42,948 nt of DNA, taken from positions 1 through 42,948 of the forward strand of contig RBNJ01000083.1 of NCBI GenBank assembly GCA_003990765.1, written 5' to 3'. Below, piece after piece: positions 11,646-42,764 of the stretch. The notes beneath the pieces are model-generated. The model had not been told where the DNA came from. It saw only the letters and a program-made list of their open reading frames with translations, and ran no database searches. The DNA comes from Jimgerdemannia flammicorona (taxonomy: Eukaryota). The position numbers and the translations under genes are program-made. Each line of letters begins with the position of its first letter. Position 1 is the stretch's first letter.

Positions 11646-12997
11646 ATGGGTAAAGACTACTATGCTATCCTCGATCTCAAAAAGAACGCCGACGATGATG
11701 CCATCAAAAAGGCTTACAGGAAGCAAGGCAAGCATTCTGGTATCACATATTTGTGCACACGCACCAACGCGTGATAACCAACACAAGTCTTACCTTCACG
11801 GCTCCCAAACCAAATAGCTCTAAAGTGGCATCCCGACCGCAACAAAGACAACGTTGAGACCGCTAAACGAAAATTCCAGGATGTTGGTGAGGCATTTGAA
11901 GTTCTGAGTGACCCAAACAAGCGCACCATTTATGATCAGTATGGTGAAGAAGGCCTCAAGGGAGTTCCACCTCAAGGTGCTGAGCCTGGCGGTGCCGCTG
12001 GCGCCTTCCCAGGCGGTTTCGCGAATTTCCCTGGCGGTGCCACTTTTACCTTCAGCTCGGGCGGACCAGGTGGATCTCGATTCCAACCCTTCCAGCCGAG
12101 AGACGCAGACGATATCTTTAAGTAATGAGCCCACATTTCACTTATATTATTGCGTCATTTGTACGTAAGTGGTCATTTCATTAACTGACGCTTGACCGTT
12201 TGTACAGAACATTCTTCGCTTCATTTGGCGGAGGGCAAGGGCAAGGGCAAGGGCAAGGGCAAGGGCAAGGGCAAGGGCAAGGGCAAGGGCATGGCATGAG
12301 TATGGGTATGGGTATGGGTATGGATGATGGTGAATTTGGTATACCAGGCGGGTTTGGCGGTATGTTCGGCGGTGGCATTCCGCGTGGTGGTGCGCCGGGC
12401 GGTGCTCGAGGTGGGCCTTCGTTCCGTAATGCACAGCAACAAGACGCTACCTCCAAACCGCCTGCGGTGAAGCGACCGCTTCCCTGTACTCTTGAAGAGC
12501 TGTATGCGGGTACCACCAAACGGCTCAAGGTCACGCGTCGCCTCATGGATGGAGCATCAGGTAAACCGATGGCGACGGACAAAGTGCTTACAATCAATGT
12601 CAAACCCGGATGGAAGGCTGGCACCAAGATTCGCTTCCCGAACGAAGGTGACGAGTTGCCGGATGGGACGACCCAGGATATCGAATTCGTACTTGAGGAG
12701 AAACCTCATCCAGTCTTCAAACGAGATGGCGACAATTTGCATATGACCATCGACCTTTCTCTTTTGGAGGCTCTCACGGGGTTCCAAAAATCGATCAAGA
12801 CGCTTGACGAGCGGAGCCTTAGCGTATCGAACGCGAACACCATTGTTCAACCAGGTGACGAGTCCCGTGTTCAGGGCGAAGGTATACCGAATTCAAAAAC
12901 TGGCAAGAAGGGGGACCTTGTCATCAAGTATAATGTCAAATTCCCATCTCAGCTAACGCCGGCTCAGAAGGAGGGTTTGAAAAAGGTGCTGGGCTGA
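11646..12997 (+). CDS. SIS1: Type II Hsp40/DnaJ co-chaperone (Sis1/DNAJB-like), 3 exons: 11646-11727, 11818-12121, 12208-12997
   Basis: [35 protein letters not shown]-domain, G/F and G/M linker, C-terminal [16 protein letters not shown]...[12 protein letters not shown]...[12 protein letters not shown], no zinc finger. Confidence 0.95.
12233..12286 (+). repeat. Coding microsatellite (GGGCAA)x9 encoding (GQ)9
   Basis: Perfect hexamer array in the G/F-G/M linker of the DnaJ gene. Confidence 0.95.
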
Positions 12998-13325
12998 TAA
13001 GACACTTTATAATCAGAAATGGGGGAGGGGGGGGTGACGGGGAAGAACTTCATTGAACGGTTCGTACCACGTATGGTGGTTTCGATTACTTTTTTGATTG
13101 AAATTTGGACCTATTAGTTTTCCGTACCGTTGGGGCAATCAGTATCGGGAAATCAGCTCACTACCGTTCAATGATTTGTGGCTAATGATGGCTAACGGTC
13201 CCTCTTGGTTATTTGATAATTGATGGATTGATGGTCAATGTACATGTCTTGTCTTCATTGCTCCATTTCATCTTGTCTTGCCTTGTTCCTTTTCGTCCTG
13301 AGATACAATAAAAATCCTCTCCCAA

Positions 13326-14138
13326 ATGACTCTTCTTTCTGTCCATCAAGCATCTAAACATCTCGGAGTCTCCTCCAGGACATTTCGTTGCTGGCACGCT
13401 CAAAGCCATTGAGGATGTCCTTCCCACGTCTTCCACCCAAACCTCCATCCAATTACACTTCACCCGACCTCTGGATCAGCCTGTGGCTATACCTATGTGC
13501 ATGTTTCAAGCCCAAAACAGCAGCAGGACCTCAAATGACAAAAATGGCACCTCCAGCAGCTCTACCCATCTTATTGCATTATTATCAATGTCACCAGTGG
13601 CATCAATTTTAAAAGACCTGGTCTTAAAATCTTATTGAAACTCTCATGTCAAGGGTTGCTAACAGAGGTAATACTTATCTTCTACTACTTACACACCTGT
13701 ATGAATATAATATTCATATCTCTTTCAACTTGATAGATCATGGTTGTCCACCATGACTGACTTTGTCACTTTACCTATAATCTCCTCAAACACATCTTCA
13801 TCCTCAATAGCACCAAGGTCATTATGGTTTATGCAGAGGATGACACATCGAACTCTGTAGCTCAAGAACTATCTGAGGACATTCTTGCAATCAATACTAT
13901 CTTCATCTACTAGATACAAGATTGAAGAGTAGTAAAAAACTGATAGTACTACAGGGACTAGCAGTAACAGCAAGGACAAGAGGAAGGTCAGGATAAGTCT
14001 GGTGTTTGTGAGGAAGAAGGACAACATATACAGTTTAATGAGAGTGATGAAGAGTAAGATATAGAGAGGTAGTAGATAGATTGTATTAAGCAAACTGAGT
14101 TGTGCAATAGTTATGAAAACTCAAGTTTTCATCATTGA
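13326..14138 (+). pseudogene. tnpA: IS607-family serine recombinase (TnpA) relic 1 with an intron at 13668-13736; 3' end approximate
   Basis: One frame reads MTLLSVHQASKHLGVSSRTFRCW (MerR-type HTH)...GYTYVHVSSPKQQQDLK*Q (cf. YARVSS.KQ..DL.RQ)...SGINFKRPGLKILL...GLLTE|IMVVHHD*LCHF (cf. VVAHRDRLCRF)...QELSEDILAINTIFI; stops arise mostly from transitions. Confidence 0.85.
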
Positions 14139-14546
14139 TTAGATTCAATCTACTGTTTTTATTAGCTCTGATATAACATGTTATAGACAAGTCCAGAAAA
14201 ATAGACAAATGAATTATATATACTCAGAACTGTATATTGTTCTTCTTCTTGACTGAGTTAAATAAGGATGCTTTTCTGTATAATTTTATATATATGTCTT
14301 ATATGTTTCTATATACAATTTTGCATTATGTCATACTATTTTCAATATAAATAATTAAAATTATAAGCTCTATACAAATTAACTATATCTCCTGAGGCCA
14401 GAATCCTAACACCCCAAGGACAATCCTTTTTCTCAACTCTTCTCTCCTATGAATCTATCTACTGATAAGGTCTTCATGATCATAATATCTTCTTACAATC
14501 TAGCTCCACCTCTACCTCTATCTCTATCTCTACCTCCACCTCCACC

Positions 14547-14957
14547 TAGTACTCTCAAATGAGTCAAATCAATTCGAATCGAATCGAATTGAGGGTTAAA
14601 CAAATCGAATCGAATTGGGGATTTTTCAATTTGAATCAATTTGAATCAAATCAAAAGTTGAATCAAATTGAGGGTCTAATTCAAATCCTAATTTTCAAAA
14701 TGCAATAACTCAGCATAAACTCATCCAAATCTAACATACTTTAGCTTGTTAGAATCACATTAATACGGTGAATCTAATAAGCTAAAATATGTTAAATTTG
14801 GATGAGTTTTCGTCGAGTTATTACATTTTGAAAATTAAGGTTTAAATCAAACTTACCTTTGATTCAATTTGAATCAAATCAAATTGGACCCTTGATTCGA
14901 TCAAATCGAATCAAGTTTGGGCCAAATTCAATTTGATTTGATTCATTGAGAGCACTA
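14547..14957. mobile_element. hAT-type MITE, copy 1
   Basis: TIRs TAGTACTCTCAA / TTGAGAGCACTA, 8-bp TSD CCTCCACC (14539-14546, 14958-14965), internal palindrome centred near 14763, near-identical to 39078-39460. Confidence 0.93.
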
Positions 14958-15291
14958 CCTCCACCTTCACCTCAATCTTTACTTCAATCTTAACCTCTAC
15001 CTTAACTTTAACCTCAACCTCCACCTCTATCTCTACCTCTACCTTAATCTCCACCTCTACTCCCATCTTAATCTCCAACTATAGTCCAGTCAAAGAGATA
15101 ATCAGACTTGCTATTTTTCATACACTTACTTGCCTTTTGGTATTTTTATATATTTTTACAAGTCTTGTTTAATTTATTCATATGTTTTACCTGCTATTTT
15201 TTTTTGTCTCCTGTTTAAATAATATTTTCATTCTTATATCTTTAAAAATCAACTATATTATATCTATATCAGTAACTTTAAAATAATTGAT

Positions 15292-15387
15292 TATACTAAG
15301 TTCAAGGTTTTTAAACTAAAGATAAAATGTAAAGAGCTCAGCCTAATAATCAATAGTATAAAGAAGGTATTAATTGACAGGCTATAG
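15292..15387 (+). pseudogene. SAP DNA-binding domain relic, part of a Pro-rich cargo gene spanning roughly 14400-15400
   Basis: YTKFKVFKLKIKCKELSLIINSIKKVLIDRL fits the SAP pattern L.V.ELK..CK..GL...G.K..LI.RL once transitions are reversed; (CCACCT)-like Pro-coding repeats lie upstream. Confidence 0.55.
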
Positions 15388-15639
15388 GACTTCTATAACA
15401 AAATGCTACAAACTTTATATTAAATAGTCAGTACTTCCAAAGTTTCAATATATATAGAAGGTTACTATTATTTTTTAATTTTTTAATATATATGAAATAT
15501 CAAATATGATATTACTAATCCAATTAACAGCTTATAAAAAAATAATTATTTCATTTATATACTTATATATCACTTTTTATTCTCAGTTATAAGTAAGTTT
15601 TCAGCCCAAACCAGTGGAAGAGACTCATCCTTAGAGCCT

Positions 15640-16074
15640 TACTAATACTCTTATATCAAGGAATAGTTATATAAGTGATGCTTTATAATGTTATTCTACT
15701 GTTGACATTCTTATTTAGCTATGAATATCATATTGACATCACTTTTGATTTGATGGATTGTGGTTGCCCACTAAGACCAACTTTATTACTTCATCAATAA
15801 TACTAAGATTATTATAGTATATTGAAAGGATGATATATCATCCTTTATATTTATTATCAATAAACTTACTCAGAGTATCTTCAAACAAGGATAATGACAA
15901 TGTTCAGCAGAAAACTGAAGGTGATGAAGAGAAGCAGAAGTATAAGATAGAGGTAAGGCTTACTTATGCTTGAAAGAAGTAGAAAGTAAAGAGAATAATG
16001 AAGAGTCTGAAGATACAGATCTATCTGAATATAAAGCAGAAGAAGCTGATGAAGAGATAGATAAGATATGCTAG
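15640..16074 (+). pseudogene. tnpA: IS607-family TnpA relic 2 (3' half) with an intron at 15675-15756 and an acidic tail overlapping the TnpB start
   Basis: YQGIVI*|IVVAH*DQLYYF...SAEN*R...EENNEESEDTDLSEYKAEEADEEIDKIC*-like tail; intron shares position and 3' sequence with relic 1. Confidence 0.7.
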
Positions 16075-17263
16075 ACTTATGTATAACATAGTCATTCAGG
16101 CATTTTAAGGTAAAGATCACTATACTACCTTTGCATATTTCTATACTCTGCTACATCAGTAGATCAATGATAGTATATGGGCTTTCATGACTGAAGTTTT
16201 ATATAATGTACTCAATAAGATGATGAAGAAAGTGATCCAAGCATGTGACCTCATTCAGCAGAGGAATCGAGAAGCATGAGAATCAGAATAGTGATATTAA
16301 TATTGACTCTTATTTCACTATTATAAGGAACTATATCAAATGATCACAATATGTTAGCAAAACTATTAAGAGTATCTTAAGTTCTATCCTCACATTCTTT
16401 ATATATATGTCATCACTACCAATGACCCTTCACATTCTCACTATAAGAATCTGACCACATATCCACCTCTTTATTATAAGCACTATAAGAAGAAATACAA
16501 TTAACTAAATCTAGAAAAATGGGTCAGCAATGATTTGAAGCTGATGTAGGATCAACAGTAGAGGTAATAGACCTTTATCTGGATCTATAAGAAGAATAGA
16601 GTAGTCTTCTTTAAGAACCAAGCAAAGGATCCTGATATCTATTCTCTAGATCTAAGTGTCTATACATTCCTGACATAGTACTCTTCTATCTATAGTTGTG
16701 GTAAGATAGATACAAAGAATGCACAAAGACTTGTTCACCTCTGTCTCATCCTCAATAATCTCATCTCCCAGACTGCTAAAGCCCCTACTCAAAAGCATAA
16801 TTCCATATACTGTACCCAGACTCATATATAGCAGTGAATCTGCAATCTTGTCAATGAGTACTACTGCAAGACTGTGCTCTAGCTCATCCATACCTTTGAT
16901 GTCATTATCATTCCTTCTTTCAATGATAGCCAGATAGCCATAAGGCACTATCAAAAGATCACCAGTAGGACAGTCCATTTGATGATGACATAGTCATATA
17001 GAAGGTTCAGAGAGAGGCTTTTGTCAAAGGCTGAAGAGTATAGCAAATAAGTATGTATGATCTCAGAGATATATACAAGCAAGACCTGCAATTGGTATGG
17101 GTGGATCAATCATAAGCTGGGTGGGAAGAAGGTATTCCATTGTCATGGGTGTGGCTTAAATATCAATAGAGACATCAATGGTGCATGTAGGATCTTTCTT
17201 CAGGCTTTATTGAATGATTGCATAGAAGGTAAGATATTCACATTTGACAAATTGATAATGTAA
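15998..17263 (+). pseudogene. tnpB: TnpB/Fanzor2 RNA-guided nuclease pseudogene (421 codons, single frame, multiple nonsense codons)
   Basis: MKSLKIQIYLNIKQKKLMKR*IRYARLMYN (OrfB HTH), WAFMTEVLYN, DIYSLDLSVYTFLT (RuvC-I, Asp at 16649), ICNLVNEYYCKTVL*LIHTFDVIIIP, TSRTVHLMMT*SYRRFRERLLSKA, SEIYTSKTCNWYG...FHCHGCGLNINRDINGA (zinc ribbon, RuvC-III). Confidence 0.92.
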
Positions 17264-17365
17264 GAAGGTTTTGGATGGCTTTTTGCAAGGTTGAATCTAA
17301 TGATGCCTTTATTTTTCTACATTACATAATTAGGGATCTAACGGAAAACATAGCTGCGACGACAA
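17150..17365 (+). ncRNA. Predicted omegaRNA region (scaffold to the right end at 17344, guide from 17345); 5' limit is a guess
   Basis: Position only: TnpB/Fanzor omegaRNAs overlap the ORF 3' end and element right end and take the guide from flanking DNA. No structure was confirmed. Confidence 0.35.
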
Positions 17366-17754
17366 TGGCAACAGCGCCAGGGTGGGGGGGGGGAAATGCG
17401 CGCCTGTGAGTTTGCCAGGCTTTGTTGGGTGGGACTGTCCTTAAGGGCACCAGTTGGGCGTGAACAGGCAGTGTTGGCTAGTAATGGCCAATGTTGTCTA
17501 TCAGTGTCCGACTCAATCCATCCGTATAATTGTGTCTAAAGTAGTTGACCACCATTGTTTTAGTTCCCTATAAATTGCTGTCTCGTTACCTTTATGCCAG
17601 TGCCCTTAAGGGGCGCGGTTCCCTAAAAGGCAAGCTTAGACATGGCAACCAGACCAACGGGCGCTGTTTCTTTGTTACCAGCGACCCTCTTTATCATTAC
17701 CAGACCCTTCTCCTAGTTCAACCTCCTAGCTCAACCCCCGACGCTCCTACTCTT

Positions 17755-18618
17755 ATGGATCACACGTCGATGTCCGTGACATCAACTTCAACTGCGACCG
17801 CAGCACCCGCCATGGATATGGGGAACCTAAAACCCTACTTCCACAGCGGTATGTTTTAAACTACGCCTGCTCCCTCCTGATCAGCGCCCTGACTGAACGC
17901 ACCATCCATCCCCTAAAACCAAACACAGAAACCTCTGGCCTGCACGTCCTCTTTGAAGCCTTCGAAGTGACGAGCACAGGAATCCTCATTGCGGCCTACG
18001 TGGCCGTTGCAATCTTGTGCTGGATCGAACGCGGGCTTAGTTACTACATGGACTCGATCTCATACGAGGGATACGGGATGGCCCGCGGGGCCGGCACGAG
18101 GTTCGGCAGGGTCGTGCTGAAGACCGTGTTGTATGGGATCGTGACGACGCTGCGCTTGTTTTATATGCTCGTCACGATGACTTGCCATACGGGATTGTTC
18201 ATCGTCGTGGTATGTGTGCGGAATGGTGGGGTTAGGATCTATGAAAGGATGGCGTATGTGGGGTGGTAAGATCGTCAAGCCCGATCGTAACCTCTCGCCC
18301 TCAAATCCCTCAGGTCATGGGCCTAACGACCGGCCAGCTTGTTCTCGAGTTCCTCAAATCTTCCACGTAAGTCCCTCCTCAGAACTTCATTTTTACATCC
18401 CACACGATCGCTCAATCCTTCATGTCCTCCCAATCCTAACCCCTAACCCACCACGCCATGCCAGCGCCGCGCGAAGGCCAACGATATTCTCGCAGACACA
18501 CGCAACTAGCCATGGCTCGAATCCGCTGTCGAACGTCAAGAACATTAGCGAGGGGTATAAGCGCATGAATAACGACGACGCCATGTACGAGCTCGGCGAG
18601 TCGCGGGGGCGATTGTGA
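17755..18618 (+). CDS. Ctr-family copper transporter, 4 exons: 17755-17848, 17929-18209, 18314-18366, 18465-18618
   Basis: Met/His-rich N-terminus MDHTSM...AMDM..KPYFHS, VLFEAFEV, three TM segments with MxxxM (YMLVTMT) and GLTTG. Confidence 0.85.
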
Positions 18619-31746: not shown

Positions 31747-32162
31747 CAGGGTGGTGTAAATAATTGAGCAAAATTTTGGACTGCGGCTGCTGACAACTTA
31801 GAGGTCTTGAATTTTAAATTTTGAAATCAAATGAAATATAAAAAAGAATTTTATAGAAGTTGTTTATTTATAAATATGGAATAATTTTATTTTTTTATTT
31901 TTAATTTGAGCTCAGTAGAGTTATAAAAAGAGAAATACTTATAAAGTATTATAATTATAATTATTAATAATTATAATCTTAATAAAATATATATTAAAAT
32001 AATAATAATAATAATAAGTTTATATTAGTATTTTAATAAAACTAATTTATCATTAATTTATTATGATTGAAATTTTAAAATTAATCTTATTTTAAGTTAA
32101 TAATTAGTTTATAGTCTAATAATATATCTTTTAACTTATTAAATATTTTTTACAAAATAATA

Positions 32163-32404
32163 ATAACCCTTAAGCTGTAATACAGGTAAATTTGTCTGCA
32201 AAAAAAAATAATATATAATTTTTATTTAAAAAAAATTTTTTACTAATAATATAAAGTTAAAAAAAAATCTAAAATATTTTTTAAAAATATTTTTCAAAAA
32301 AAAATTTTTTTAATACTTTTACTAATAAATATAAGATAAAAAAAAAAAAAAAAAAAAAAAAAAGAGGGCCCGTAAAAATCCTTACTACATAAACCTAAAA
32401 AAAT

Positions 32405-32443
<39 letters not shown>

Positions 32444-33373
32444 CTAAAAAAAAAAAACTAAAAAAAAAAAAAAAAAAAAAAAAAGATGAGCCTGTGAAAT
32501 CCTTACTACATAGACCCTATGAAATCTAAAATACAAAAAGAATAACTAAGATAGAAGGAGTTTCTCTAGAAGAAATAACTTAAGAAATAAATAAAAAAAT
32601 CAGTGAAATTCCAGAGAACCAAGACTCAATAAGGATAAAAAGAAGTAGCTCTATAAAAAAAGATTATGCTTTATTTACAAGAAGGTAGGACACATCTCTT
32701 TCAAATGTCTTAAGAAGAGAAACAAATTAGATAAATCTAGTAACTAGAACATCACTATTATTGGAGAAGGCCCAGGAAAGAAAAACTCTGAGAATATCAT
32801 TAGAGTATAAAAGATATAATACAAGACTACCATCCCCACTAAGGCCCATCTTATAGATATAGAATATAATCTCTACAGTAGCCAGGATCTTACAATACTA
32901 CTAAGTAGTGCTCCTAATGAAAACTTTAAATTGAATTAAGATCTAATTCAATTTAATTTGAGTTTTAATTTGAATAAAATCAAGTTACAATTCAAATTGA
33001 ATTCAAAGTTTGAATTTTGAATTAAATTCAAAATTCAATTTAAAATTCAAATCTAAATATAGTAATTCAAAACTCCCATATAATATAACTCACAACAATA
33101 ATATATATACACTCTTCTTAGCAATTAAGCAATAGGGTTACATAACCCTTAGACTATATATAACACAGGCAAATTTGCCTGCAAAAAAAAATAATATATA
33201 ATTTTTATTTAAAAAAATTTTTTTACTAATAAATATATATATAATAAAAAAAAATATTAAAAATATTAAAAAATTAATTTTTTGAAAAAAAAATTTTATT
33301 AAAAATTTATAATAAATATATAGTCAAAAAAAAAATTAAAAATTTAAAAATTTTTGCAGGCAAATTTGCCTGC
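32163..33373. repeat. Duplicated AT-rich element ends (about 32163-32330 and 33141-33373)
   Basis: ATAACCCTTA..ACAGG(T/C)AAATTTG(T/C)CTGCAAAAAAAAATAATATATAATTTTTATTTAAAAAAA occurs twice; palindrome GCAGGCAAATTTGCCTGC at 33356-33373. Confidence 0.75.
32906..33070 (+). mobile_element. Unpaired hAT-type terminus
   Basis: TAGTGCTCCTAA followed by TTGAAT/ATTCAA-rich subterminal repeats like those of the MITEs; no partner TIR found in the window. Confidence 0.6.
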
Positions 33374-33549
33374 AAAAATGAACAGCCAATTGGATAAGAG
33401 AGTATTATTGAAAATTTGAAATATTTCAAATTTGGGTGCGAAATCTGAAATATTTTGAATTTGGTTGTGAAATTTGAAAATATTTCAAAAAAAAACTGTG
33501 TCCTTGAAGTAAAAAATTTCTCAACTTTATATTCTTGTAACCTAAAATA

Positions 33550-34645
33550 CCATTGGCTGGAATCGACAATAGGGCTGAGAGGATGGGGCTTAGATAGATG
33601 AGAGATCTAGTAGACAGTATAATGGGTCTAGTGGTGGCCCCATTACTCAAGAAGTTGATCTTGGAGTTCACAGTTACTTTATACTTCAGAGGCTTAGCAG
33701 TAATAGCAAGAATGGTACTAGGGCTAATTGCTAAGTAGGTGGCTAGAGCTATATTCATGAAGTTCTTAAAGGGATTGGAAGGAGTGGAGGTTGGCTTTAA
33801 GGAGGCTGGACTATTGGAGAAAGTGCTGAAGACTGAGCTGACTATTGGGGAGGTGTGTATTCTAATGATGTACTGCTTGAGATGAGACCCCAGAGTAGTA
33901 CAGTTACTAGTAAAAGAGGTGCCCATGGTGACTGCTGAGGAGATGAGAAGAAGAATCAAGAAAGTCATGGCTGAGTATAGGGAGGTGGTTGATATTGAAT
34001 TCTGGGTCTAGGAGGGGACCTTATTCCAGACTGAGGATATTGATGTTCAGATTTGGTTAGCAGAGAAGGAAGCTACTGGAAAGGCTAGAGACTGGTCTTT
34101 GGGGTGGGGGAGGGGGATTGCTGGGAGGACTTAAGATCTCGGCTTGTAGGTGGAGTGAGTGATAGTTGGCTCACTGTAGGGTGGGTATTAGCAGTGTGGG
34201 TGGGACTGGCTGGACATTGGCTTTTTGTATTTGAGGAGGGACAGCAGATAGGGCTACAGGAGAAGGTATTATGGTGAGAGAAGTTGTTGGGGGATCTGCT
34301 GACTAGATGGTGGATGGATTGGAGTTCTTAGGGGGAGTGATGCCACAGTTTGGTAGTAAGGATCTGTGAACAGAGTAGTGGGAGAGTAGAGATAGTGTTA
34401 GACAAAGTAGCCTTTTGTCAGATAAGGGTAGGGGAGGGGGGCCCCCCCTAGGGGGATTAGATAGGGGGTAGATTCAATGTATTTATATGGAATAGATAGG
34501 CATAATAAAGGAAGGAAGTCCAAGTGACTATAAAAAAAAAAAAAAAAAAAAAAATACCTCAAAAGTGGCAAGGTATGTTGAAGATAAGCTACAAGAATTG
34601 GAGCCTTTTTTGAGCTGCAAGAAATAGAGAGTAAGGGAATAAAAC
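33550..34645 (+). mobile_element. Decayed non-LTR retrotransposon-like fragment (ORF1-like), host of the hAT insertion
   Basis: Stop-ridden frame VVQLLVKEVPMVTAEEMRRRIKKVMAEYREVVDIEFW; downstream poly(A)-containing units continue after 42755. Confidence 0.4.
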
Positions 34646-35529
34646 AGAGAGAGTAGTACTTCAAACAAGTCAATTTGAATCAAATCCAGATTTAATTTGC
34701 CACATAATGGTTTGATCCAAATCTCAAATTCAAAGCCATCTGAATCAACTTGGATTAATCTGAATTACTCTATCTGAATTACCCCATCTGAACCACCCCA
34801 TCTGAATTACTTAATCTGAATTACTCAATCTGAATTACTCAATCTGAATCACTTAATCTAAATTACTCAATCTGAATCCTTTAATTTGAATCCTCCAATT
34901 TGAATCCTCCAATTCAAATCCTCTAATTCAAATCCTCTAATTCAAATTCTTCAATCTGAATCCTCATCCAAATCCTTCAACTGAATCCTCTAATCTAAAT
35001 TCTCTATATGACTCATATGCTAGATATATTTATATATACAATATATATATATGTAAATATATATATGTATATGCAAATATACAAATACATATGTCAACAG
35101 ATCAGTCTTTAACAGTTCATAGTACTGATAATGCTTCAAGTTAAATATCTCTGATAGTTCTACACCTTTTATGCAATTCTCACTCCAAAATCTGGCAACA
35201 TTATGCTAAGATAGGAGATGATATTGTTTATAATTATTGTAGGTAAAAAATTAAGATACACCTATTCATATAACTGACACTTTTTGTTTAACATATATAT
35301 GATACTATTTCATCTACTCCCATAAACTGCACCAGCCAAAAGTTTAAAATATTTGGTGGTATAACTTCAAATATACATATATCAATATATAAAAGACAAG
35401 TATTCTGATAAAATCAAAAAGAATACAGAGACAAATAAAATCAACATCCAAGCTATGGTGGGTACATTTATCCAATTGTCTAACCATTTCTATACCAATA
35501 ACCTCATTTAATCAAAAATATTTAGCCAT

Positions 35530-38364
35530 ACTCTTTGGCAGAATTTCAAAATCAGCTCATTTGCTAGATTGTATGCACAGACCAGCCATTTACAACCATT
35601 AAGAGTGATCAATTGCATAGTATCTTTGGTCTCCTCAAGCATGATTTATATTTGCTAAATACTGATACTATTCACAAAGATGTCCTGGAGGCCTATAGGA
35701 AAGAGCATAACAATCTCTACCAGATACTTCAGATAAAATAAGAGCAGTACCATGATCTTTGCAAGCTTAATTATATATATTTTTTTATAAAGAGCTTACA
35801 AATTTAACCTCATATTCAATAAGTAGAATTTTGTAGGCAAAATTTTATTTATGATCAACACATGGATATTCCCCAATATAATTTTATTTCTAAGTATTAC
35901 TGATCATTAGATTGACCTCAATTGGTAGCTTAAATCTCTCACCCTTGACTTTGTCAAACTTGCTAGCCCTCATTCTGGAGACAACATTACAGATGTTTTT
36001 ATTAGTTATATCCAGGAGCTTGGAATCACAACTAAGGTAAAAAAGAAAGGCTTGCTGTCAGATTGGTATTTTGAGAGAGATCTTAAAACAAAATAGATTT
36101 TATTGGTTATTTATTTTTACATAAATTTGCTAACCAAATATTTCAAGTACAGATTTTGGCCATTATGATAGACAATGCTACAAATAACTCAATGTTTTTC
36201 CAAGTTTTAGCAGCCAACCTCAAATAGGAAAATATGGCCTTCAGTACAGAAAGCTGCCATATATACATAATACCAGACCCACATACTGAACCTCACTATT
36301 TAGAACTATCTTATATATATAGACAAAACATCTGAGAGAGGAGGGGCCCTGAGTATAATTTCCAAGCTATACAAACTAGTTGTATTGGTCTGATTGTCTC
36401 TATAACAATAAGATAAATTTGTTATATAGTATAGGGTAATCAGTTTAGCTCTAAAAGAGCTTATATTGGACATCTGTATATATTGAAACTCAATATTTAC
36501 AATGATCCAGCATGTGCTGGAGTTTGCTATGGTATGTGTTCTTTTTTCTTTGGTCAGCTGAAGCAACTTATTTCAGATGATTGAAGATTTTTTTTTTTAA
36601 AAAAAAACAAAAAACAAAAAAAGTCAATAGATTCAATAGTAGCTGTCAACAAGGAAATATAGGACAAGGCTCTAGGTGAAAGTAAGTAGGATGTACTTAG
36701 GAATATTATCAGAGTTTTGGAAGTAAGTAGTGATTATTCTGGCTCTATACTTGTTTGTCTGCCTCTATATAATATAATACCTCACCACATATAACTGTCA
36801 GTGTTTTGATGATTGTATGAAGGATATAGTCAAACAAATAACCTCAACAATAAGCTCTGCAATAACAGTATACAACCTTCTAATTGATTGGCTAGAAGAT
36901 AAGCTCAAGGATAGGCTAGAGAGTTGTGGTAATTTATGGTTAAGCCTAGATCAAAGAGATATGGAGGTTGCTCTAAGCAAGCTCAGAAAATACTGCTCCA
37001 AAACAGATACTACCATATACTCAATCAGTACAGGTATGTCGACATATAGTCATTATCTCTTTTAAAATAGAGAAACTCTTGCAAAAACTCACTCTCTTTT
37101 CTCTGAATAGTGCTGGATCTATACTTAAAGCTACAATACTATAAAGATCAGAGCTGGGAGCAGTACTTCATTGAGAGAATTAAGTAGATCTCTTTCTCCA
37201 CTACCTTACTGGTTACAATAGTTTGGTAGACAACCTTTTGAGTCCACTTTTCATAATTATTACCCCCTCTATCTTGGGTTGGTTTGCTGTACTTGTTGTA
37301 GAGCAGTAAGAGGGAGGTAATGGTGATGAGTTGTCTCTTTATTGGTATCAGATCAGTGTTTTCTCCACTTTTTCACAGTTTCTGATGTCTTTGGATATAT
37401 CTGGAGTATATTTGTTTTGATACAGTACCTTCTTTCTTTTGTTGTCACTAACAAGATACTGTCTCAGTATGTCTTGGGCTATATAGGGAGTTGGCCAATC
37501 TTAGGCATCAAGTGCTCAGTATAGATTACCTGCAGGTCCTCAGTATCTGTAGTAGGGCCCTCTGGTTTTGGTAAGCTTTCTGGTGAGTATAGTTCTGGTA
37601 TAGGTGACTGCTTTTCAGGTGTTATTGAGATGGGAGGGGAGATAGCCATCATAGATAAGAGAAAGGGTGATAATGGTGAACCAGTAGAGTACCAGACTGG
37701 GGGCAGTTACATATTGGGGCTGGAGTGGGTGCTGCTTTAGTGGGGCCTTTTGATTGGTACAGTGTGGTTAGGTAGTAGATATCACTCTCAACTTCTTTTG
37801 GCAATTTAGCAGGTTGGGCTCTGGTTATTAGGAGGAGTCAGAGAGTCCAAGACTACCTATTTCAGGCATCTTAGCTACACTCAACTAGAACTAGGAGCTG
37901 ATTAGCAATGTGATTGAGGCCTACAGGCTTGAGTAGTGGGGTATTGAGGGTCTCCTCCCATCTCACATATAAGTCCTTTACTCATCTTAACTGAGAGAAC
38001 CAGGCTCTATCTACTGTGTTGTACTTTGATGAGGGTTTTTCTTTGCCTGTCATTCTCTTTGGAGTGGCAGGGGCTATTCTATTTAGCTTAGGCATAGTCT
38101 TATATATATGTTGGGTTCTTAGATATATACTTTCAGTCATTGGCATATGGCTGGGTTTCCCCTGGTGATAGAGAGAGCATAGTGTACAGAATGAGATGTG
38201 GGTCAACATAGACCCTGCTGCACCTGATATAGTCAAGCTGCTGGACAATAGCTAGCCTAGATTAATGGAGAGGCAGTGCTTAATGGGTGGTGGGAGAGGG
38301 TTTTGGTCTATCTAGTCTAGGTTTCTTTCCAATAAAAATCCATGGAACATTGAGTCTATTAATA

Positions 38365-39029: not shown

Positions 39030-40000
39030 TGGTAGTAGTAGAGAGAGCATACAAAATTTGCAGCCCTCTACCAGCAGTAGTGCTCTCAAATGAGTCAAAT
39101 CAATTCAAATCGAATTGAATTGAGGGTTAAATGAGTCGAATCGAATTGGGGATTTTTCAATTTGAATCAATTTGAATCAAATCAAAAGTCAAATCGAATT
39201 GAGGGTCTAATTCAAACCCTAATTTTCAAAATGCAATAACTCAGTGTAAACTCATCCAAATCTAACGTACTTTAGCTTGTTAGAATCACATTAATACGGT
39301 GAATCTAACAAGCTAAATTACATTAAATTTGGATGAGCTTTCATCGAGTTATTACATTTTGAAAATTAAGGTTTGAATTGAACTTCGAATCGAATTGGAC
39401 CTTTGATTTGATTCAAATAGAATCAAATTGGACTCTTGATTCGATTTGTTGGGAGCACTAACCAGCAGTAAGGGGCAGTTTCAAGCTGTCAGTATCTCAA
39501 GCTATCAGTACTTGGGTCAGTAGGCAGGTTAGTGGATATGGGGTCAGTAGAGGGAGTATACAAAATTTATAGTCCTCTGCCAGCAGCAAGAGGCAGCCCC
39601 AAGTCATAAGTGTCTGGGATGGAGGGGTTGGCAGAGGAGGAGGGTAGATGGAGAGAGTATGTAAAATTTGTAGCCCTCTGTCAGCAGTGAGAGGCAGCCC
39701 CAAGCTGTCAGTGCCCAGGTCAGTAGGTAGGATCAGTTGGCAGGATTAGTGGGCATAGGGTTAGTAGAGAGAGCATGCAAAATTTGTGGCCCTTTGCTGA
39801 TAGCAAGGGGCAGCCCTAAGCCACAAGTGTCGAGATGAGCAGGGCAGACAGAGAGAGTGTGCAAAATTTGCAGTATCAGCAGTATAGAGCTCCCCCCAGC
39901 AGTCTGTGTCTGGGCCAGAGATCAGCAGAGTTGGTGAAGAGAGTATGCAAAATTTGTGGCCCTCTACCAGCAGCATAGAGATAGTCCCAAGCTACCAAGG
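39030..40000. repeat. Degenerate ~90-120 bp tandem units inside the hAT element
   Basis: Core GAGAG(C/T)AT(G/A)CAAAATTTG..GCCCTCT.CCAGCAG...GGCAGCCCCAAG recurs about six times; MITE copy 2 sits inside the first unit. Confidence 0.85.
39078..39460. mobile_element. hAT-type MITE, copy 2
   Basis: TIRs TAGTGCTCTCAA / TTGGGAGCACTA, 8-bp TSD ACCAGCAG (39070-39077, 39461-39468). Confidence 0.93.
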
Positions 40001-40374: not shown

Positions 40375-41600
40375 CTCACAAAAACTGCTCCACCTGCTGA
40401 TCCCAGGTCTTGATGAGCCTGTTATCCATTGTAAGTATAACAACTATTATGTCTGAGCTCTCCTCAAAGGTGATGATACCATAGTAATTATATGGTTAAA
40501 ATAGGATAGCTATATTGACTATAAATGGGACCCTGAAACCATAGGTGAGATTGTACAGACTCCACTACTATTCTCCCAGATTGGGTCCTTCCTTTCCAGA
40601 ATGTAGAACATTATTGGAGTGATGTCATTGTCTATATGTGTGGACAGAGAAACATTGTACCTAATATATTCTGATGTGATATAAGTATATGATTGGATGA
40701 ACCCTTGGCCCAGAACCTCATACTGCCAGGTTGTACTTGTGGATGTCTGCCCTTAGTCCAGCCCCAGGAGCCCTGGCTTGGAAACCTACCAGATAGACAG
40801 TATCCAGTCAGTCCTTTTTGCATATGGGGGGGCAGAAACCCCCCAGGCTACAGAAACCCTCTAGGCTATAGCACCCAAAAAAAGTAGAGCTCCTCACCTC
40901 ATACAGCATGCTAAATTGTGCCAAGAATGTATATATAGCTATACGGAGATCACTACCAAGCTGGCCTGCTATACACTCTACCAATCTGCTCAAAAAACTC
41001 CAGATCATAGCTGCTATTGCTATATAGACTGTGTCATGCTCATATATAGTTTGCTCTTTGATAGTACTTCTAAAGTTCTGGTAGGGGTACAGAATCTTGT
41101 GTATCCCTGAAATTGTATCAAAAAGAGTATATTGGTGAAGAGTGTAATTATCTAGAGAGGAGTAAAAAAAAGAGAGATGAGTGCAGGAGATTTCAGAACT
41201 CTGAAACCCACCCTTTGCCAGTATTACAGTATACTCAATTCCTGTCCAAACTCCCCCTCTTTGCTTTTTTTGCCCCCTCTTTCCTGCCATTCAGTATTTG
41301 ATACAATTCTCACAAATCTCATTGATATAGTAGTAAAGCTCATTGCTATAGAGGTTTCTTACCACCATTACAACTACCTCTCTACATTTATTAATAATAA
41401 TATAGTTCTCTTCATCATTGGTTACTCCTACTGATCAATAGACCTCTTGGTCAAGAACAATTAGCTCTAATTTAAATGTAGACCCCCAAGTCTTGATAAC
41501 AATGCTAGTACTACTCATACTGAACATATTGCTCTTGAATTTCTCTATTTGATCAGATATCAGATATAGTTGAACTCAGATAACTTTGAACTCTTCTTTC
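40375..41600 (-). pseudogene. Possible TET/JBP-like 2OG-Fe(II) dioxygenase cargo relic; limits approximate
   Basis: After an AG acceptor at 40661: YNVSLSTHIDNDITP (HxD)...WENSSG/LYNLTYGFRVPF..NIAILF*PYNYYGI (restorable to P..HHGT); one frameshift needed. Confidence 0.4.
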
Positions 41601-42764
41601 CAATGGAACTGAGCTCTGATCTGAGGGGCCAAGATAAGTATGCAGATGGGTTGCATACAGACAGATTGTATATAGACAGATTATATACAGACAGATTGTA
41701 TGTGGGTAAGTTGCATGCAGATGAGTTGTATGCAGATGTGGGTGTTTTTTAGGAAGAGACCACATAAAAAATAAAGTTAAATAAAACATAGAGATGGATA
41801 TTATAGAAAAAGAGTATAAGTGAATGAGTGAGTGAGTTATATGCCAATGAGTTATATACTAATAAGTTGCATAAGTTATATGAGTTGTATAAGATTGCTC
41901 ACAAAGGCTTATTTCTGTTCCTTTTGAGACATCTATCATACAATGCATTGACTCAACAGCTCAGCCACCAAAGATATATCTCATAATATCTGTTAGCCTT
42001 TCTTTATCTTCACCAGATATTGCAAATAAAGTCAGCAGATCTTACCATAGAGCTGTGGACCCTAAAAAAAGCATGAGGTAAATTGGGTTGTACTGGGGAA
42101 ATTTAAATAAATACAAGTAAATAAGTGAGCAACCTATATTTACTATTGACTACTCCAAAAAGACTGCCATATACATAACTGTGAGGTCTGTGAATTCTGA
42201 GGTCCAAAGGGCTGCTGTGAGTTATTGCCAGAATTCTCTCTCATCCCCACCATTGCCACTACCATCACTATTACCACTGTCATTGCCACTACCATTACCC
42301 CTTTGGCTCTTGATGAGTAGCTTGTATACTGCCTATATGAGAAAGAATCCAACATTATCAGCAGAGAGTGCATTACTATCTCAAATACTCTCTCTTTTGA
42401 TGATCATTGTAGAGTAAAAAATGAGTAGACTGGATCAATATATGATTAAGGACTACTGTTTTGTTTGCTTGTAATATGGTAGAAAAGAAAAAAAAATAAA
42501 GAAAAAGAATAAAGAAAGAATAAAAGAAGAGAGAGAATAAAAAAAAAGGTAATGTCACCAAAGTATAGCAGGAAAAAAAAAACAAGAGCAAAAATGAATA
42601 AAAGAAAGAGTGATGTTACCAAAGATTTCAATCTGAATGGATCAATCTAGATCAGATCATGAGACTAATCTGAGTTGATTTGAATCTATTACATGATGAA
42701 TCTGAATCAAATCTCATCTAGATCAACTCCATCTATTTGGAGCACTAAGAGAGAGTAAAGACTC

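What the first reader, a model, noticed from the sequence alone, without database searches (positions are those of the whole stretch)
13199..17344. Fungal IS607-like element pairing serine recombinase TnpA with a TnpB/Fanzor2 RNA-guided nuclease
Seen: frames missed by the ORF track carry IS607 TnpA motifs (MerR HTH, Y.[R/H]VSS.KQ..DL, SGINFKR.GL, ELSEDILAI) and a complete TnpB, with the TnpA acidic tail overlapping the TnpB start. Established: IS607 TnpA-TnpB is the prokaryote/giant-virus architecture linked to Fanzor2, while most fungal Fanzors described are Fanzor1. Inference: an IS607/Fanzor2 family was active in this fungal nucleus and intact copies may exist elsewhere in the genome.
Basis: partly seen in the sequence, partly recalled or inferred. 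Interest (0 to 1): 0.92.

Follow-up and report, generated by a model that had tools for sequence, protein, structure and literature searches.

The report
Dead IS607/Fanzor2 transposon in a fungus
This stretch is the mutated, rearranged wreck of a bacterial-type jumping gene (a serine recombinase plus a small RNA-guided nuclease of the Fanzor2 kind) sitting between two ordinary genes of an early-diverging fungus; the kind is already known in fungi, so it is a real but fairly ordinary find.

Summary
Window 13326-14075 (+) is an IS607-type TnpA (MerR-like HTH plus serine recombinase). Window 15998-17260 (+) is a TnpB of the Fanzor2/"pro-Fanzor" type. Relatives match at E 2.9e-56 and 9.7e-61. The closest solved structure is mimivirus Fanzor2 (9b0l); Fanzor1 is far.

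Neither gene is intact. TnpA has 14 stops in the 250 codons read (12 in its exons and tail) and two indels. TnpB has 21 in-frame stops and has lost one zinc-finger cysteine. The TnpA tail that overlaps the TnpB start belongs to a second, 5'-truncated TnpA copy (15543-16074). The two partial copies are separated by 1.25 kb of unrelated AT-rich DNA holding a MITE-like foldback.

The damage is C>T/G>A hypermutation with near-total CpG loss, not classical CpA-type RIP. By a flanking DnaJ gene the host is a Mucoromycota fungus, nearest named relative in Endogonales. TnpA carries a GT-AG intron shared with relatives.

A non-coding block (17385-17602), conserved with relatives, may encode the guide RNA.

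Fanzor2 is already catalogued broadly in fungi, including related-looking Glomeromycotina entries. This is a new member of a known kind.

The parts
12998..13325 (+). Stretch between the DnaJ stop codon and the TnpA ATG. The unknown left end of the element lies somewhere in here.
   Evidence: The DnaJ ORF ends at 12997. CpG o/e is 1.06-1.21 for 13000-13199 and 0.27 for 13200-13299. No other copy is available to fix the end.
13326..13667 (+). TnpA copy A, exon 1: MerR-like HTH plus the N-terminal part of the serine-recombinase domain. The catalytic VSS motif is kept. There are 2 in-frame TGA stops and two indels (frame change near 13400, return near 13467) that delete the conserved HTH wing.
   Evidence: NCBIfam transpos_IS607 E 6.8e-7, profile positions 3-116. 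Alignment with relatives.
13668..13736 (+). Putative spliceosomal intron, 69 nt, GT...AG, phase 0.
   Evidence: The sequence starts GTAATA and ends TAG. Removing it makes the protein collinear with homologues lacking the insertion (P0010, P0011, P0020, P0028, P0031). P0006, P0008 and P0009 read through unrelated insertions at the same site, all starting with V; those of P0006 and P0008 end with Q. The IS607 profile resumes at position 122.
13737..14075 (+). TnpA copy A, exon 2: the rest of the catalytic domain (ELSEDILAI) and a degraded basic-then-acidic C-terminal extension. 10 stops.
   Evidence: transpos_IS607 profile positions 122-186, E 3.1e-6. tblastn of P0006 residues 1-265 maps to 13326-14054.
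14026..14289 (+). Remnant of the first ~260 nt of TnpB belonging to copy A.
   Evidence: A purine/pyrimidine-space local alignment pairs 13554-14289 with 15543-16254, score 187.5 against at most 76.5 in 20 shuffles. No protein-level hit.
14290..15542 (.). Unrelated AT-rich filler between the two partial copies. It holds a (CCTCTA)n-like low-complexity run that is split by a MITE-like foldback at 14547-14958.
   Evidence: No purine/pyrimidine-space similarity to the TnpB region and no tblastn hit at E<1. Inverted repeats. A second foldback copy at 39077-39445 is 88.6% identical over 368 nt.
15543..16074 (+). TnpA copy B: 5'-truncated and more heavily mutated, running from mid catalytic domain to the acidic tail and the stop at 16072-16074. 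This is the copy whose tail overlaps TnpB.
   Evidence: tblastn of P0006/P0007 maps to 15679-16071. Direct repeat D2.. The tail motif DEEIDKIC aligns with the conserved C-terminus of relatives.
15998..17260 (+). Fanzor2-type TnpB pseudogene in one frame: N-terminal HTH, RuvC-I (DPG mutated to DLS), Pro at the canonical RuvC-II Glu position, alternative Glu in SEIYTSKTC, zinc ribbon with one Cys changed to Tyr, and RuvC-III RDING. There are 21 in-frame stops in the 426 codons read from 15983. The frame closes with TAA at 17261-17263.
   Evidence: Pfam TNB 57.5 bits. phmmer best hit 9.7e-61. tblastn of P0050 residues 1-383 maps to 16013-17224 and P0052 residues 167-607 to 15995-17212. PDB 9b0l E 7.7e-13.
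17385..17602 (+). Conserved non-coding 3' block, little affected by the hypermutation. It is a candidate guide-RNA (omega/reRNA) scaffold and right-end region. It contains a 12-nt inverted repeat at 17439-17450 / 17600-17611.
   Evidence: The read-through tails of P0202 (69.6% identity over 46 aa, 17400-17537) and P0208 (match running to 17602) align here in two different frames, so the DNA is conserved but not coding. GC 0.51 and CpG o/e 0.63. Inverted repeats. No support from folding (z 0.06) or from Rfam.

Best explanation
This is a fossil of a eukaryote-adapted IS607-family transposon. It lies in the intergenic DNA between a DnaJ (Sis1-like) gene and a Ctr copper-transporter gene of a Mucoromycota fungus.

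When alive (inferred from the known families), the unit was about 2.5-3 kb. It comprised a left end; tnpA (MerR-like HTH plus serine recombinase, with one spliceosomal intron and a eukaryote-specific basic/acidic C-terminal extension); an overlapping tnpB of the Fanzor2 type (about 400-420 aa, with the rearranged RuvC site: DPG and an alternative glutamate); and a non-coding 3' region of at least 340 nt that would supply the guide RNA. TnpA would excise and integrate the double-stranded element. The Fanzor2-RNA complex would cut element-free target sites so that repair copies the element back.

What is there now (shown) is two partial, overlapping copies. Copy A (about 13326-14289) has TnpA and the TnpB start. 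Copy B (15543 to about 17602) has the TnpA 3' half, TnpB and the 3' block. They are separated by 1.25 kb of unrelated AT-rich DNA, into which a MITE-like foldback has inserted.

Both copies were inactivated by heavy C>T/G>A mutation that removed nearly all CpG. This is most likely deamination of methylated repeats, or a RIP-like process with a CpG preference (inferred). Two indels add to the damage in TnpA. The locus has no present function.
For: TnpA identity. The read-through matches NCBIfam transpos_IS607 in the right order on both exons (profile positions 3-116 and 122-186), 56.9 bits for the whole. Intact relatives P0006, P0010 and P0011 score 140.6-151.8 bits against a cut-off of 110, and P0006 passes Pfam Resolvase and MerR.

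TnpB identity.. The family profile hits mimivirus Fanzor2 (9b0l) at 2.5e-45 and ISDra2 TnpB at 8e-17. The AF2 model of clade member P0050 (pLDDT 90.2) ranks 9b0l first (E 3.5e-19, TMq 0.70) and SpuFz at ranks 41-42.

Linkage of the two genes. There is a 77-nt overlap in the window. In 69 of 80 prokaryotic loci encoding the nearest TnpB relatives, a TnpA lies directly upstream on the same strand; 3 of the 11 without one sit at a contig edge.

Eukaryotic lineage. There is a GT-AG intron at a site shared with P0006, P0008 and P0009. In the TnpA tree the window falls in a 5-row clade (SH-aLRT 99) inside a 20-row clade (98) that includes a chytrid protein and 0 of 46 prokaryotic rows. In the TnpB tree it falls in a 25-row clade (100) with 0 of 30 prokaryotic rows.

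Host. The DnaJ flank is 77% identical to Jimgerdemannia flammicorona, with Mucorales next.

Decay. Of the residue mismatches to P0208, 111 are explicable by C>T/G>A alone and 14 by the reverse direction. The same counts are 85:3 against P0202 and 55:12 for TnpA against P0006. 13 of 20 aligned TnpB stops sit where P0208 has W, Q or R. CpG o/e is 0.03 in TnpB and 0.00 in TnpA copy B, against 0.95-0.99 in the flanks.

Rearrangement..
Against: On the window's own degraded sequence only the TNB domain passes a curated cut-off. Resolvase (18.1 bits, cut-off 23.3), HTH_OrfB (15.3, cut-off 21), transpos_IS607 (56.9, cut-off 110) and guided_TnpB (29.9, cut-off 100) do not.

Neither end of the element is defined. 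No other copy and no empty site could be examined, and no significant terminal repeats were found: the 7-9-nt matches at 13117-13197 and 17338-17349 are at chance level.

The 3' block has no thermodynamic or Rfam support as an RNA. It could instead be a conserved insertion target.

Classical RIP indices are not met: (CpA+TpG)/(ApC+GpT) is 1.24-1.76 across 13501-17500, apart from one 500-nt bin (15001-15500) at 0.84. The two overlapping copies differ by 100 transversions in 669 aligned positions, so a simple recent internal duplication is unlikely and the origin of the rearrangement is unresolved.

Every nearest relative is an unnamed short contig, so the host range of the lineage is inferred, not shown.
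Confidence: 0.88

Rival explanations
1. The conserved block 17385-17602 is not part of the element. It is a conserved host sequence that this family targets (site-specific insertion), so the true right end would be near 17344, where the hypermutation stops.
For: There is a sharp change in GC and CpG o/e near 17300-17344. The block has near-normal composition (GC 0.51, CpG o/e 0.63). It shows no RNA-fold signal. In multi-copy prokaryotic relatives, conservation between copies ends about 30-40 nt after the TnpB stop (8 Uabimicrobium and 6 Caldilineaceae copies).
Against: The same adjacency (TnpB end, then block) is seen in P0202, P0208 and P0209, from relatives whose TnpB is only about 72% identical even after allowing for C>T changes. 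Intergenic host DNA would not normally stay alignable at that distance. No Rfam family and no tRNA lies there. Published mimivirus Fanzor2 loci have about 200 nt of conserved non-coding DNA after the ORF (PMC10530073, passages read).
Confidence: 0.2
2. The locus is a single element that suffered an internal duplication plus insertion of foreign DNA, rather than two independently truncated copies lying in tandem.
For: Both parts lie on the same strand and in the correct order. Deleting 14290-16254 would restore one collinear unit of about 2.4-2.5 kb.
Against: The overlapping segments differ by 100 transversions in 669 positions, about 8.5% even in the best-aligned core. That is more than C>T hypermutation of a recent duplicate would produce. 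No known transposition mechanism gives a 735-nt duplication flanking an insert.
Confidence: 0.3
3. The C>T decay is true RIP, as in Ascomycota, rather than deamination of CpG-methylated repeats.
For: There is a strong C>T/G>A bias. GC falls to 0.25-0.35, more than CpG loss alone explains. TpA o/e rises from 0.71-0.76 in the flanks to 0.83-1.06 in the element. A linked duplicate is present.
Against: The host is Mucoromycota. A 2026 review lists RID as restricted to Ascomycota (PMC13297926, passages read). CpA and TpG are not depleted: o/e is 0.94-1.33 and the substrate index is 1.24-1.76, apart from one 500-nt bin at 0.84. CpG is the dinucleotide that is wiped out.
Confidence: 0.15
4. This is a recent bacterial IS607 (from an endosymbiont or contamination), or a fragment of an integrated giant virus, rather than a long-resident fungal element.
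For: IS607 is a prokaryotic and giant-virus architecture. Prokaryotic relatives reach 42-52% identity over the RuvC half. A Cotonvirus TnpA is among the hits.
Against: The locus is embedded between fungal genes on one contig. TnpA has a GT-AG intron. Both trees separate the window's clade from all prokaryotic rows, and the Cotonvirus TnpA falls outside it. No other viral gene was seen next to it.
Confidence: 0.03

Closest known systems
Eukaryotic/viral IS607-type elements with Fanzor2 (e.g. ISvMimi of Acanthamoeba polyphaga mimivirus, ACa elements of Acanthamoeba; Bao & Jurka 2013, PMC3627910; Jiang et al. 2023, PMC10530073; structure 9b0l)
   Same: A serine-recombinase TnpA lies upstream of a compact TnpB-like nuclease on the same strand. 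The nuclease has an N-terminal HTH, a RuvC site with DPG and a relocated glutamate, and a zinc ribbon. 9b0l is the best PDB match both by sequence and by fold. There is a long conserved non-coding 3' region.
   Different: This copy sits in a Mucoromycota nuclear genome, and TnpA has a spliceosomal intron and a basic/acidic C-terminal extension. Identity to 9b0l in the fold alignment of relative P0050 is only 21%. The copy is dead and rearranged.
Fungal Fz2 entries of Saito et al. 2023 (PMC10432273, Supplementary table; e.g. Diversispora eburnea, Geosiphon pyriformis, and an unclassified Gigaspora margarita entry)
   Same: By eye, the listed sequences share this lineage's characteristic stretches around RuvC-I, the IIIP.FN strand and the C-terminal end. 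The authors classify them as FZ2 and as fungal.
   Different: The comparison was by reading only; those sequences were not brought into any tool. The paper's main text does not mention IS607 or a linked recombinase (0 occurrences). Endogonales names are absent from its supplements.
IS607-like sequences in fungi (Gilbert & Cordaux 2013, PMC3673617)
   Same: These are prokaryote-type IS607 ORFA/ORFB remnants in fungal nuclear genomes, often with stops and frameshifts (section 9 read).
   Different: The fungi reported there are ascomycete yeasts and Ustilago hordei. In that study, sequences matching the entire IS607 (ORFA plus ORFB) are named only for Ectocarpus and Acanthamoeba. Here both ORFs are present in a Mucoromycota fungus.
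Cyanobacterial and other bacterial IS607 with 'pro-Fanzor' TnpB (Yoon et al. 2023, PMC10711439)
   Same: They share the DPG plus alternative-Glu RuvC signature and an abutting TnpA. They are the nearest prokaryotic relatives, at 42-52% identity, many of them cyanobacterial.
   Different: They have no intron and no C-terminal TnpA extension. Their right end lies about 30-40 nt after the TnpB stop. They form separate clades in both trees.
Fanzor1 (e.g. SpuFz1, 8gkh)
   Same: It is an RNA-guided RuvC nuclease of eukaryotic transposons with a relocated glutamate.
   Different: There is no sequence hit at E<=1 with the family profile. By fold it ranks 41-42 with TM 0.37-0.38. Fanzor1 is larger, has REC/WED insertions, and is carried by other transposon superfamilies.

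Membership tests
IS607 family (TnpA serine recombinase) | N-terminal MerR-like HTH followed by a serine-recombinase catalytic domain, matching the curated IS607 transposase model | tested here: inconclusive
   The window read-through scores 56.9 bits against a cut-off of 110, with the two exons hitting profile positions 3-116 and 122-186 in order. Pfam Resolvase scores 18.1 against a cut-off of 23.3. Intact relatives at 40-46% identity pass: 140.6-151.8 bits for P0006, P0010 and P0011, and Resolvase 66 and MerR 36.8 bits for P0006. The shortfall fits decay, not a different family.
IS607 family (TnpA serine recombinase) | Catalytic serine motif (R/H-V-S-S-x-K-Q) | tested here: met
   VHVSSPKQ lies at 13497-13520. 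The two serines are nearly invariant in the alignment.
IS607 family (element architecture) | tnpA directly upstream of tnpB on the same strand, abutting or overlapping it | tested here: met
   TnpA copy B stops at 16072-16074 and the TnpB ATG is at 15998, a 77-nt overlap. The same arrangement is found in 69 of 80 prokaryotic relatives. The full-length TnpA (copy A) lies 1.9 kb upstream because of the rearrangement.
IS607 family (element architecture) | Defined left and right ends without terminal inverted repeats or target-site duplications | not testable with these tools
   Only one degraded locus is available. Short matches near the borders are at chance level.
Fanzor2 | TnpB homologue resident in a eukaryotic or eukaryotic-virus genome | tested here: met
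   The flanking DnaJ and Ctr genes are fungal, with the nearest relatives in Mucoromycota. An intron is present in the linked tnpA.
Fanzor2 | RuvC with the DPG motif and a relocated (alternative) glutamate, compact TnpB-like size, and an N-terminal HTH | tested here: met
   In the alignment, relatives have LDPG where the window has LDLS. Pro stands in IIIPSFN where canonical TnpBs have Glu. Glu is kept in SEIYTSKTC, and RDING is kept. The definition of these motifs is taken from PMC10711439. The ORF is about 421 codons. HTH_OrfB is sub-threshold in the window (15.3 bits) but passes in P0050, P0052, P0055, P0056, P0058, P0063, P0092, P0147 and P0157.
Fanzor2 | Closer to Fanzor2 than to Fanzor1 or to generic TnpB | tested here: met
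   9b0l is first by sequence (7.7e-13 for the window, 2.5e-45 for the family profile) and by fold. SpuFz is absent from the sequence hits and ranks 41-42 by fold.
Fanzor2 | Cognate guide RNA encoded at the 3' end of the element | tested here: inconclusive
   There is a non-coding block at 17385-17602, conserved at the DNA level with relatives. It has no fold signal (z 0.06) and no Rfam match. Covariation could not be tested without the relatives' DNA.
Fanzor2 | Intact ORF / active nuclease | tested here: not met
   There are 21 in-frame stops, a mutated DPG motif and one zinc-ribbon Cys changed to Tyr. It is a pseudogene of the family, not a working member.
Fanzor1 | Large (>600 aa) protein with REC/WED insertions, sequence- and fold-similar to SpuFz1, carried by non-IS607 transposons | tested here: not met
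   together with the linkage to an IS607 TnpA.
RIP (repeat-induced point mutation, Ascomycota type) | C>T/G>A transitions with a CpA>TpA preference (low (CpA+TpG)/(ApC+GpT), high TpA/ApT) | tested here: not met
   The transition bias is present (111:14). But the substrate index is 1.24-1.76 across 13501-17500, apart from one bin at 0.84, and the dinucleotide wiped out is CpG (o/e 0.00-0.03). The host is not an ascomycete.

The most novel reading that the evidence does not exclude
The relic marks an undescribed, eukaryote-adapted autonomous IS607 lineage of Mucoromycota-type fungi. Its features would be a serine-recombinase TnpA with a conserved spliceosomal intron and an NLS-like/acidic C-terminal extension, a compact (about 390-420 aa) Fanzor2, and a conserved non-coding 3' block of at least 220 nt serving as guide-RNA scaffold. 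Members with intact ORFs (P0006, P0010, P0050, P0208 and others, on unnamed environmental contigs of about 1.5-3 kb) might still be mobile. That would make it a rare case of a serine-recombinase DNA transposon operating in a eukaryotic nucleus. In this reading the block escaped the CpG-directed hypermutation because it lies next to the promoter of the Ctr gene, or because it is under selection.
Probability: 0.3. Interest if true: 0.5.

Novelty: new member of a known kind. Interest (0 to 1): 0.28.

Why it matters
This adds a Mucoromycotina (Endogonales-like) host, and a copy still linked to its recombinase, to the known range of IS607/Fanzor2 elements. That supports the published view that Fanzor2 entered eukaryotes together with its IS607 recombinase.

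The shared intron in tnpA and the eukaryote-only C-terminal extension suggest long residence in fungi rather than a recent transfer. The intact environmental relatives could be a source of small Fanzor2 nucleases, and of a eukaryote-adapted serine-recombinase transposase, worth testing.

The locus itself is dead and has no functional consequence for the host. Its CpG-erasing decay is a side observation on how this fungus treats repeats.

Tried and rejected
- **First Pfam calls.** They failed because my coordinates included stop codons. I replaced them with stop-free pieces and with read-throughs that put X at each stop.
- **Is 14100-15600 a fully degraded TnpB of copy A?** Rejected. There is no purine/pyrimidine-space diagonal and no tblastn hit at E<1.
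- **First transition-tolerant alignment.** It over-extended and was replaced by the stricter one.
- **Classical RIP.** Rejected on the indices and on the host.
- **RNA evidence for the 3' block.** None was found. MFE z-scores are 0.06 on the + strand and 0.91 on the - strand. Rfam gave nothing at gathering score for the whole window or at E<=10 for 17000-17800. There are no tRNAs.
- **Terminal repeats.** The CTAACGG 7-mer at 13191 and 17338, a 9-nt inverted match at 13117/17349, and G-runs at 13027 and 17384 are all at chance level or of low complexity.
- **Naming the nearest relatives.** All 18 proteins looked up belong to clusters without organism names. I did not try to trace their samples.
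- **Linkage of TnpA and TnpB in the environmental relatives.** The only hint is that one TnpA cluster (P0018) and one TnpB cluster member (P0211) both list a longest contig of 3187 nt. That is too weak to count.
- **Literature.** Searches for Fanzor + Mucoromycota and for IS607 + mycorrhizal returned 0 papers. Two broader multi-term searches listed nothing relevant among the papers shown.
- **Not possible here.** The closed metagenome contigs and viral contigs collections were not used, so the DNA of the closest relatives stayed unseen. No host genome was available.

Full report
**What is in the sequence.** Between a DnaJ (Sis1-like) gene ending at 12997 and a Ctr copper-transporter gene starting near 17750 lies an AT-rich tract with GC 0.27-0.42, against about 0.45-0.58 around it. 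Its + strand is broken into short open pieces.

A second frame from the ATG at 15998 to 17260 carries a TnpB. I read both through with X at each stop. In the 250 TnpA codons read (13326-14075) there are 14 stops: 2 in exon 1, 2 in the intron-encoded stretch and 10 in exon 2 and the tail. The TnpB read (15983-17260, 426 codons) has 21 stops.

**Is it more than chance?** Yes.
- The TnpA read-through finds 41 proteins at E<=0.001 among 77 candidates. The best is P0006 at 2.9e-56, and most hits carry precomputed MerR and/or Resolvase Pfam domains.
- Its two exons hit NCBIfam transpos_IS607 at profile positions 3-116 and 122-186.
- The TnpB read-through finds 4552 proteins at E<=0.001 and 30 at <=1e-30 in the 1.8-billion-protein representative library, best 9.7e-61. 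The word-indexed search gives P0202 at 9.7e-73 with 50% identity.
- Pfam Cas12f1-like_TNB passes its cut-off (57.5-59.2 bits against 26.3).

On the degraded window sequence the other curated models stay below their cut-offs: Resolvase 18.1 (cut-off 23.3), HTH_OrfB_IS605 15.3 (21), transpos_IS607 56.9 (110) and guided_TnpB 29.9 (100). Intact relatives pass. P0006, P0010 and P0011 score 140.6-151.8 bits on transpos_IS607, and P0050 scores 158.6 on guided_TnpB.

**Anatomy of TnpA.** A 69-nt stretch (13668-13736) begins GTAATA and ends TAG. Removing it makes the protein collinear with homologues that have nothing there (P0010, P0011, P0020, P0028, and the chytrid protein P0031). At the same site, P0006, P0008 and P0009 read through insertions of different length and sequence that start with V (GTN). 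Those of P0006 and P0008 end with Q (CAR), while P0009 breaks off inside its insertion. I read this as a phase-0 spliceosomal intron shared by part of the family.

Relatives of this clade also have a C-terminal extension of about 60-80 residues: a basic patch followed by an acidic tail ending in a conserved D-G-x-C. P0028 and the giant-virus protein P0045 lack it, and the 187-position IS607 profile ends before it.

Against P0009, the window's TnpA leaves its frame near 13400 and returns near 13467. Thirteen residues of the conserved HTH wing are lost. So indels as well as stops inactivate it.

**Anatomy of TnpB.** The ORF is collinear in one frame with complete relatives: P0050 residues 1-383 map to 16013-17224, and P0052 residues 167-607 to 15995-17212. 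The alignment shows:
- RuvC-I: LDPG in relatives, LDLS in the window.
- Pro in the strand IIIPSFN, where canonical TnpBs have the RuvC-II glutamate.
- A conserved Glu in SE(A/I)YTSKTC.
- A zinc ribbon whose second Cys is Tyr in the window.
- RuvC-III RDING.

DPG plus an alternative glutamate is the signature that Yoon et al. (PMC10711439, passages read) assign to Fanzor1, Fanzor2 and the IS607 'pro-Fanzor' TnpBs.

**Fanzor2 or Fanzor1?**
- By sequence, the best solved structure is 9b0l, mimivirus 'TnpB-like protein L79', which the fold library labels as Fanzor2. It scores E 7.7e-13 for the window, 2.8e-21 for relative P0050 and 2.5e-45 for a 12-sequence family profile. ISDra2 TnpB follows at 8e-17, and no SpuFz chain appears at E<=1.
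- By fold, an AlphaFold2 model of P0050 (pLDDT 90.2) ranks 9b0l first (E 3.5e-19, TMq 0.70) and then TnpBs. SpuFz (8gkh, 9cey) ranks 41-42 with TMq 0.37-0.38.
- In the supplementary table of Saito et al. 2023, entries labelled FZ2 from Diversispora and Geosiphon, and an unclassified Gigaspora entry, look by eye like this lineage. I did not bring them into a tool.

I could not build a tree with labelled Fanzor references.

**Linkage and lineage.** A TnpA tail ending at 16074 overlaps the TnpB ATG at 15998 by 77 nt. The scan of bacterial and archaeal genomes matched 348 stretches. Of these, 301 encode relatives and 80 were kept (cyanobacteria, Chloroflexota, a planctomycete and others; 42-52% identity over the RuvC half). 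In 69 of the 80, a TnpA homologous to the window's lies directly upstream on the same strand; 3 of the 11 without one are at a contig edge.

Two quick-mode IQ-TREE trees (SH-aLRT support, midpoint root) place the window as follows:
- TnpA tree, 70 rows: the window sits in a 5-row clade (99) with P0006, P0007, P0008 and P0010. That clade lies inside a 20-row clade (98) which contains the chytrid Borealophlyctis protein and none of the 46 prokaryotic rows. The Cotonvirus protein falls outside. One prokaryotic row per record title was kept, 46 of 65.
- TnpB tree, 78 rows: the window sits in a 25-row clade (100) with none of the 30 prokaryotic rows (30 of 55 kept).

The window rows have long or compositionally odd branches, as expected for mutated sequence.

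**Rearrangement.** TnpA homologues map twice: in full at 13326-14054, and in part at 15679-16071. Transitions do not change purine/pyrimidine class, so I aligned in that space. There, 13554-14289 aligns with 15543-16254 at score 187.5, against at most 76.5 in 20 shuffles.

So copy A holds the whole TnpA and about 260 nt of TnpB. Copy B holds the TnpA 3' half, TnpB and what follows. The 1.25 kb between them (14290-15542) has no similarity to TnpB in that space or at protein level. It contains a low-complexity run split by a 412-nt foldback (14547-14958), which has a second copy at 39077-39445, 88.6% identical over 368 nt.

The overlapping parts differ by 219 transitions and 100 transversions in 669 positions. 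I therefore lean towards two old, separately truncated copies rather than a recent duplication, but this is unresolved.

**Host and mode of decay.** The DnaJ C-terminal exon is 77% identical to Jimgerdemannia flammicorona (Endogonales). Mucorales, Umbelopsis and Mortierellomycotina follow; Rhizophagus is at 59%. The host is therefore a Mucoromycota fungus, not an ascomycete. This rests on one gene.

The mutation pattern is strongly directional. Among residues that differ from P0208, 111 can be derived by C>T/G>A alone, 14 by the reverse alone, and 95 by neither. The counts are 85:3 against P0202 and 55:12 for TnpA against P0006. Of the 20 aligned TnpB stops, 13 stand where P0208 has W, Q or R.

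CpG observed/expected is:
- 0.03 in TnpB
- 0.00 in TnpA copy B
- 0.20 in TnpA copy A
- 0.04 in another AT-rich tract (32-37 kb)
- 0.95-0.99 in the flanks

CpA and TpG are not depleted, and the classical RIP substrate index is 1.24-1.76 across 13501-17500, apart from one 500-nt bin (15001-15500) at 0.84. This fits deamination of CpG-methylated repeats, or a RIP-like process with a CpG preference. It does not fit Neurospora-type RIP. A 2026 review lists RID as restricted to Ascomycota and DNMT5 in some Mucoromycota (PMC13297926, passages read).

**The right end.** Homology continues beyond that point. The predicted proteins P0202, P0208 and P0209 run past the TnpB domain into tails that match window 17400-17537 (69.6% over 46 aa) and on to about 17602. 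P0202 and P0208 match in different frames. That means conserved DNA that is not coding.

Its position is where TnpB and Fanzor2 elements encode their guide RNA. Jiang et al. describe about 200 nt of conserved non-coding DNA after the mimivirus Fanzor2 ORF (PMC10530073, passages read). In multi-copy bacterial relatives, by contrast, conservation ends about 30-40 nt after the stop.

I found no folding signal (z 0.06) and no Rfam match. There is only a 12-nt inverted repeat at 17439-17450 / 17600-17611. A conserved insertion target remains a live alternative, at about 0.2.

**Comparison with what is known, and novelty.**
- Bao & Jurka 2013 defined Fanzor2 as the IS607-linked type and listed four yeasts with one copy each (PMC3627910, passages and Table 1 read).
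- Gilbert & Cordaux 2013 found IS607-like sequences in ascomycete yeasts and Ustilago hordei. Sequences matching the entire IS607 are named only for Ectocarpus and Acanthamoeba (PMC3673617, section 9 and passages read).
- Saito et al. 2023 state that Fz2 is 'found broadly in fungi'.
- Jiang et al. 2023 report intron gain in Fanzors and an association of Fanzor2 with IS607.

Searches for Fanzor + Mucoromycota and for IS607 + mycorrhizal returned no paper. Endogonales names are absent from Saito's supplements. What is new is therefore modest: a host group, a copy still linked to its recombinase, and the intron and C-terminal extension of TnpA.

**What stayed unchecked.** I could not examine copy number or intact copies in the host genome, either end of the element, or the DNA of the closest relatives (metagenome and viral contig collections closed). 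I also could not build a tree with labelled Fanzor references.

Noticed in passing
window 14547-14958 and 39077-39445: A foldback (MITE-like) element of about 400 nt with long internal inverted repeats (85-nt arms, 84% complementary). It is present twice in the window at 88.6% identity over 368 nt. The first copy splits a (CCTCTA)n-like low-complexity run.
   Followed up: partly
window 32001-37000 (also 41001-42000): Further AT-rich tracts (GC 0.20-0.40), with CpG o/e of 0.04 for 32001-37000. They show the same CpG-erased signature as the element and are probably other decayed repeats. No IS607 or TnpB similarity was found there.
   Followed up: partly
window 13500-17300 versus flanks: Repeat-specific, near-complete loss of CpG with a C>T/G>A bias, in a genome whose nearest named relatives are Endogonales and Mucorales. 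This points to CpG methylation-driven decay, or to a RIP-like defence outside Dikarya.
   Followed up: partly
window 17370-17378 / 17660-17668 and 17439-17450 / 17600-17611: Two nested inverted repeats (9 nt and 12 nt, the inner one containing a CTTAAG palindrome) bracket the conserved 3' block. Their meaning is unknown.
   Followed up: no
window 13021-13036 and 17381-17396: G-runs of 8-10 nt lie on both sides of the element. They may be coincidence or low-complexity sequence.
   Followed up: no
proteins P0052, P0055, P0056, P0147, P0157 (relatives, not in the window): Some clade members have a 165-190-residue N-terminal extension before the HTH. In the three I read (P0052, P0055, P0056) it has Lys/Arg-rich NLS-like stretches and a shared Ser-rich region. 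The window's TnpB has no such extension.
   Followed up: no
loci L021-L042 (Uabimicrobium, 8 copies) and L018-L045 (Caldilineaceae, 6 copies): In these multi-copy bacterial IS607 relatives, similarity between copies ends about 30-40 nt after the TnpB stop. Their guide-RNA scaffold must therefore lie inside the ORF's 3' end, unlike the long 3' tail seen here.
   Followed up: partly
window 12185-12330: A (GGTCAA/GGACAA)-type repeat encodes a GQGQGQ... run in the G/F-rich linker region of the DnaJ gene, upstream of its C-terminal domain.
   Followed up: no
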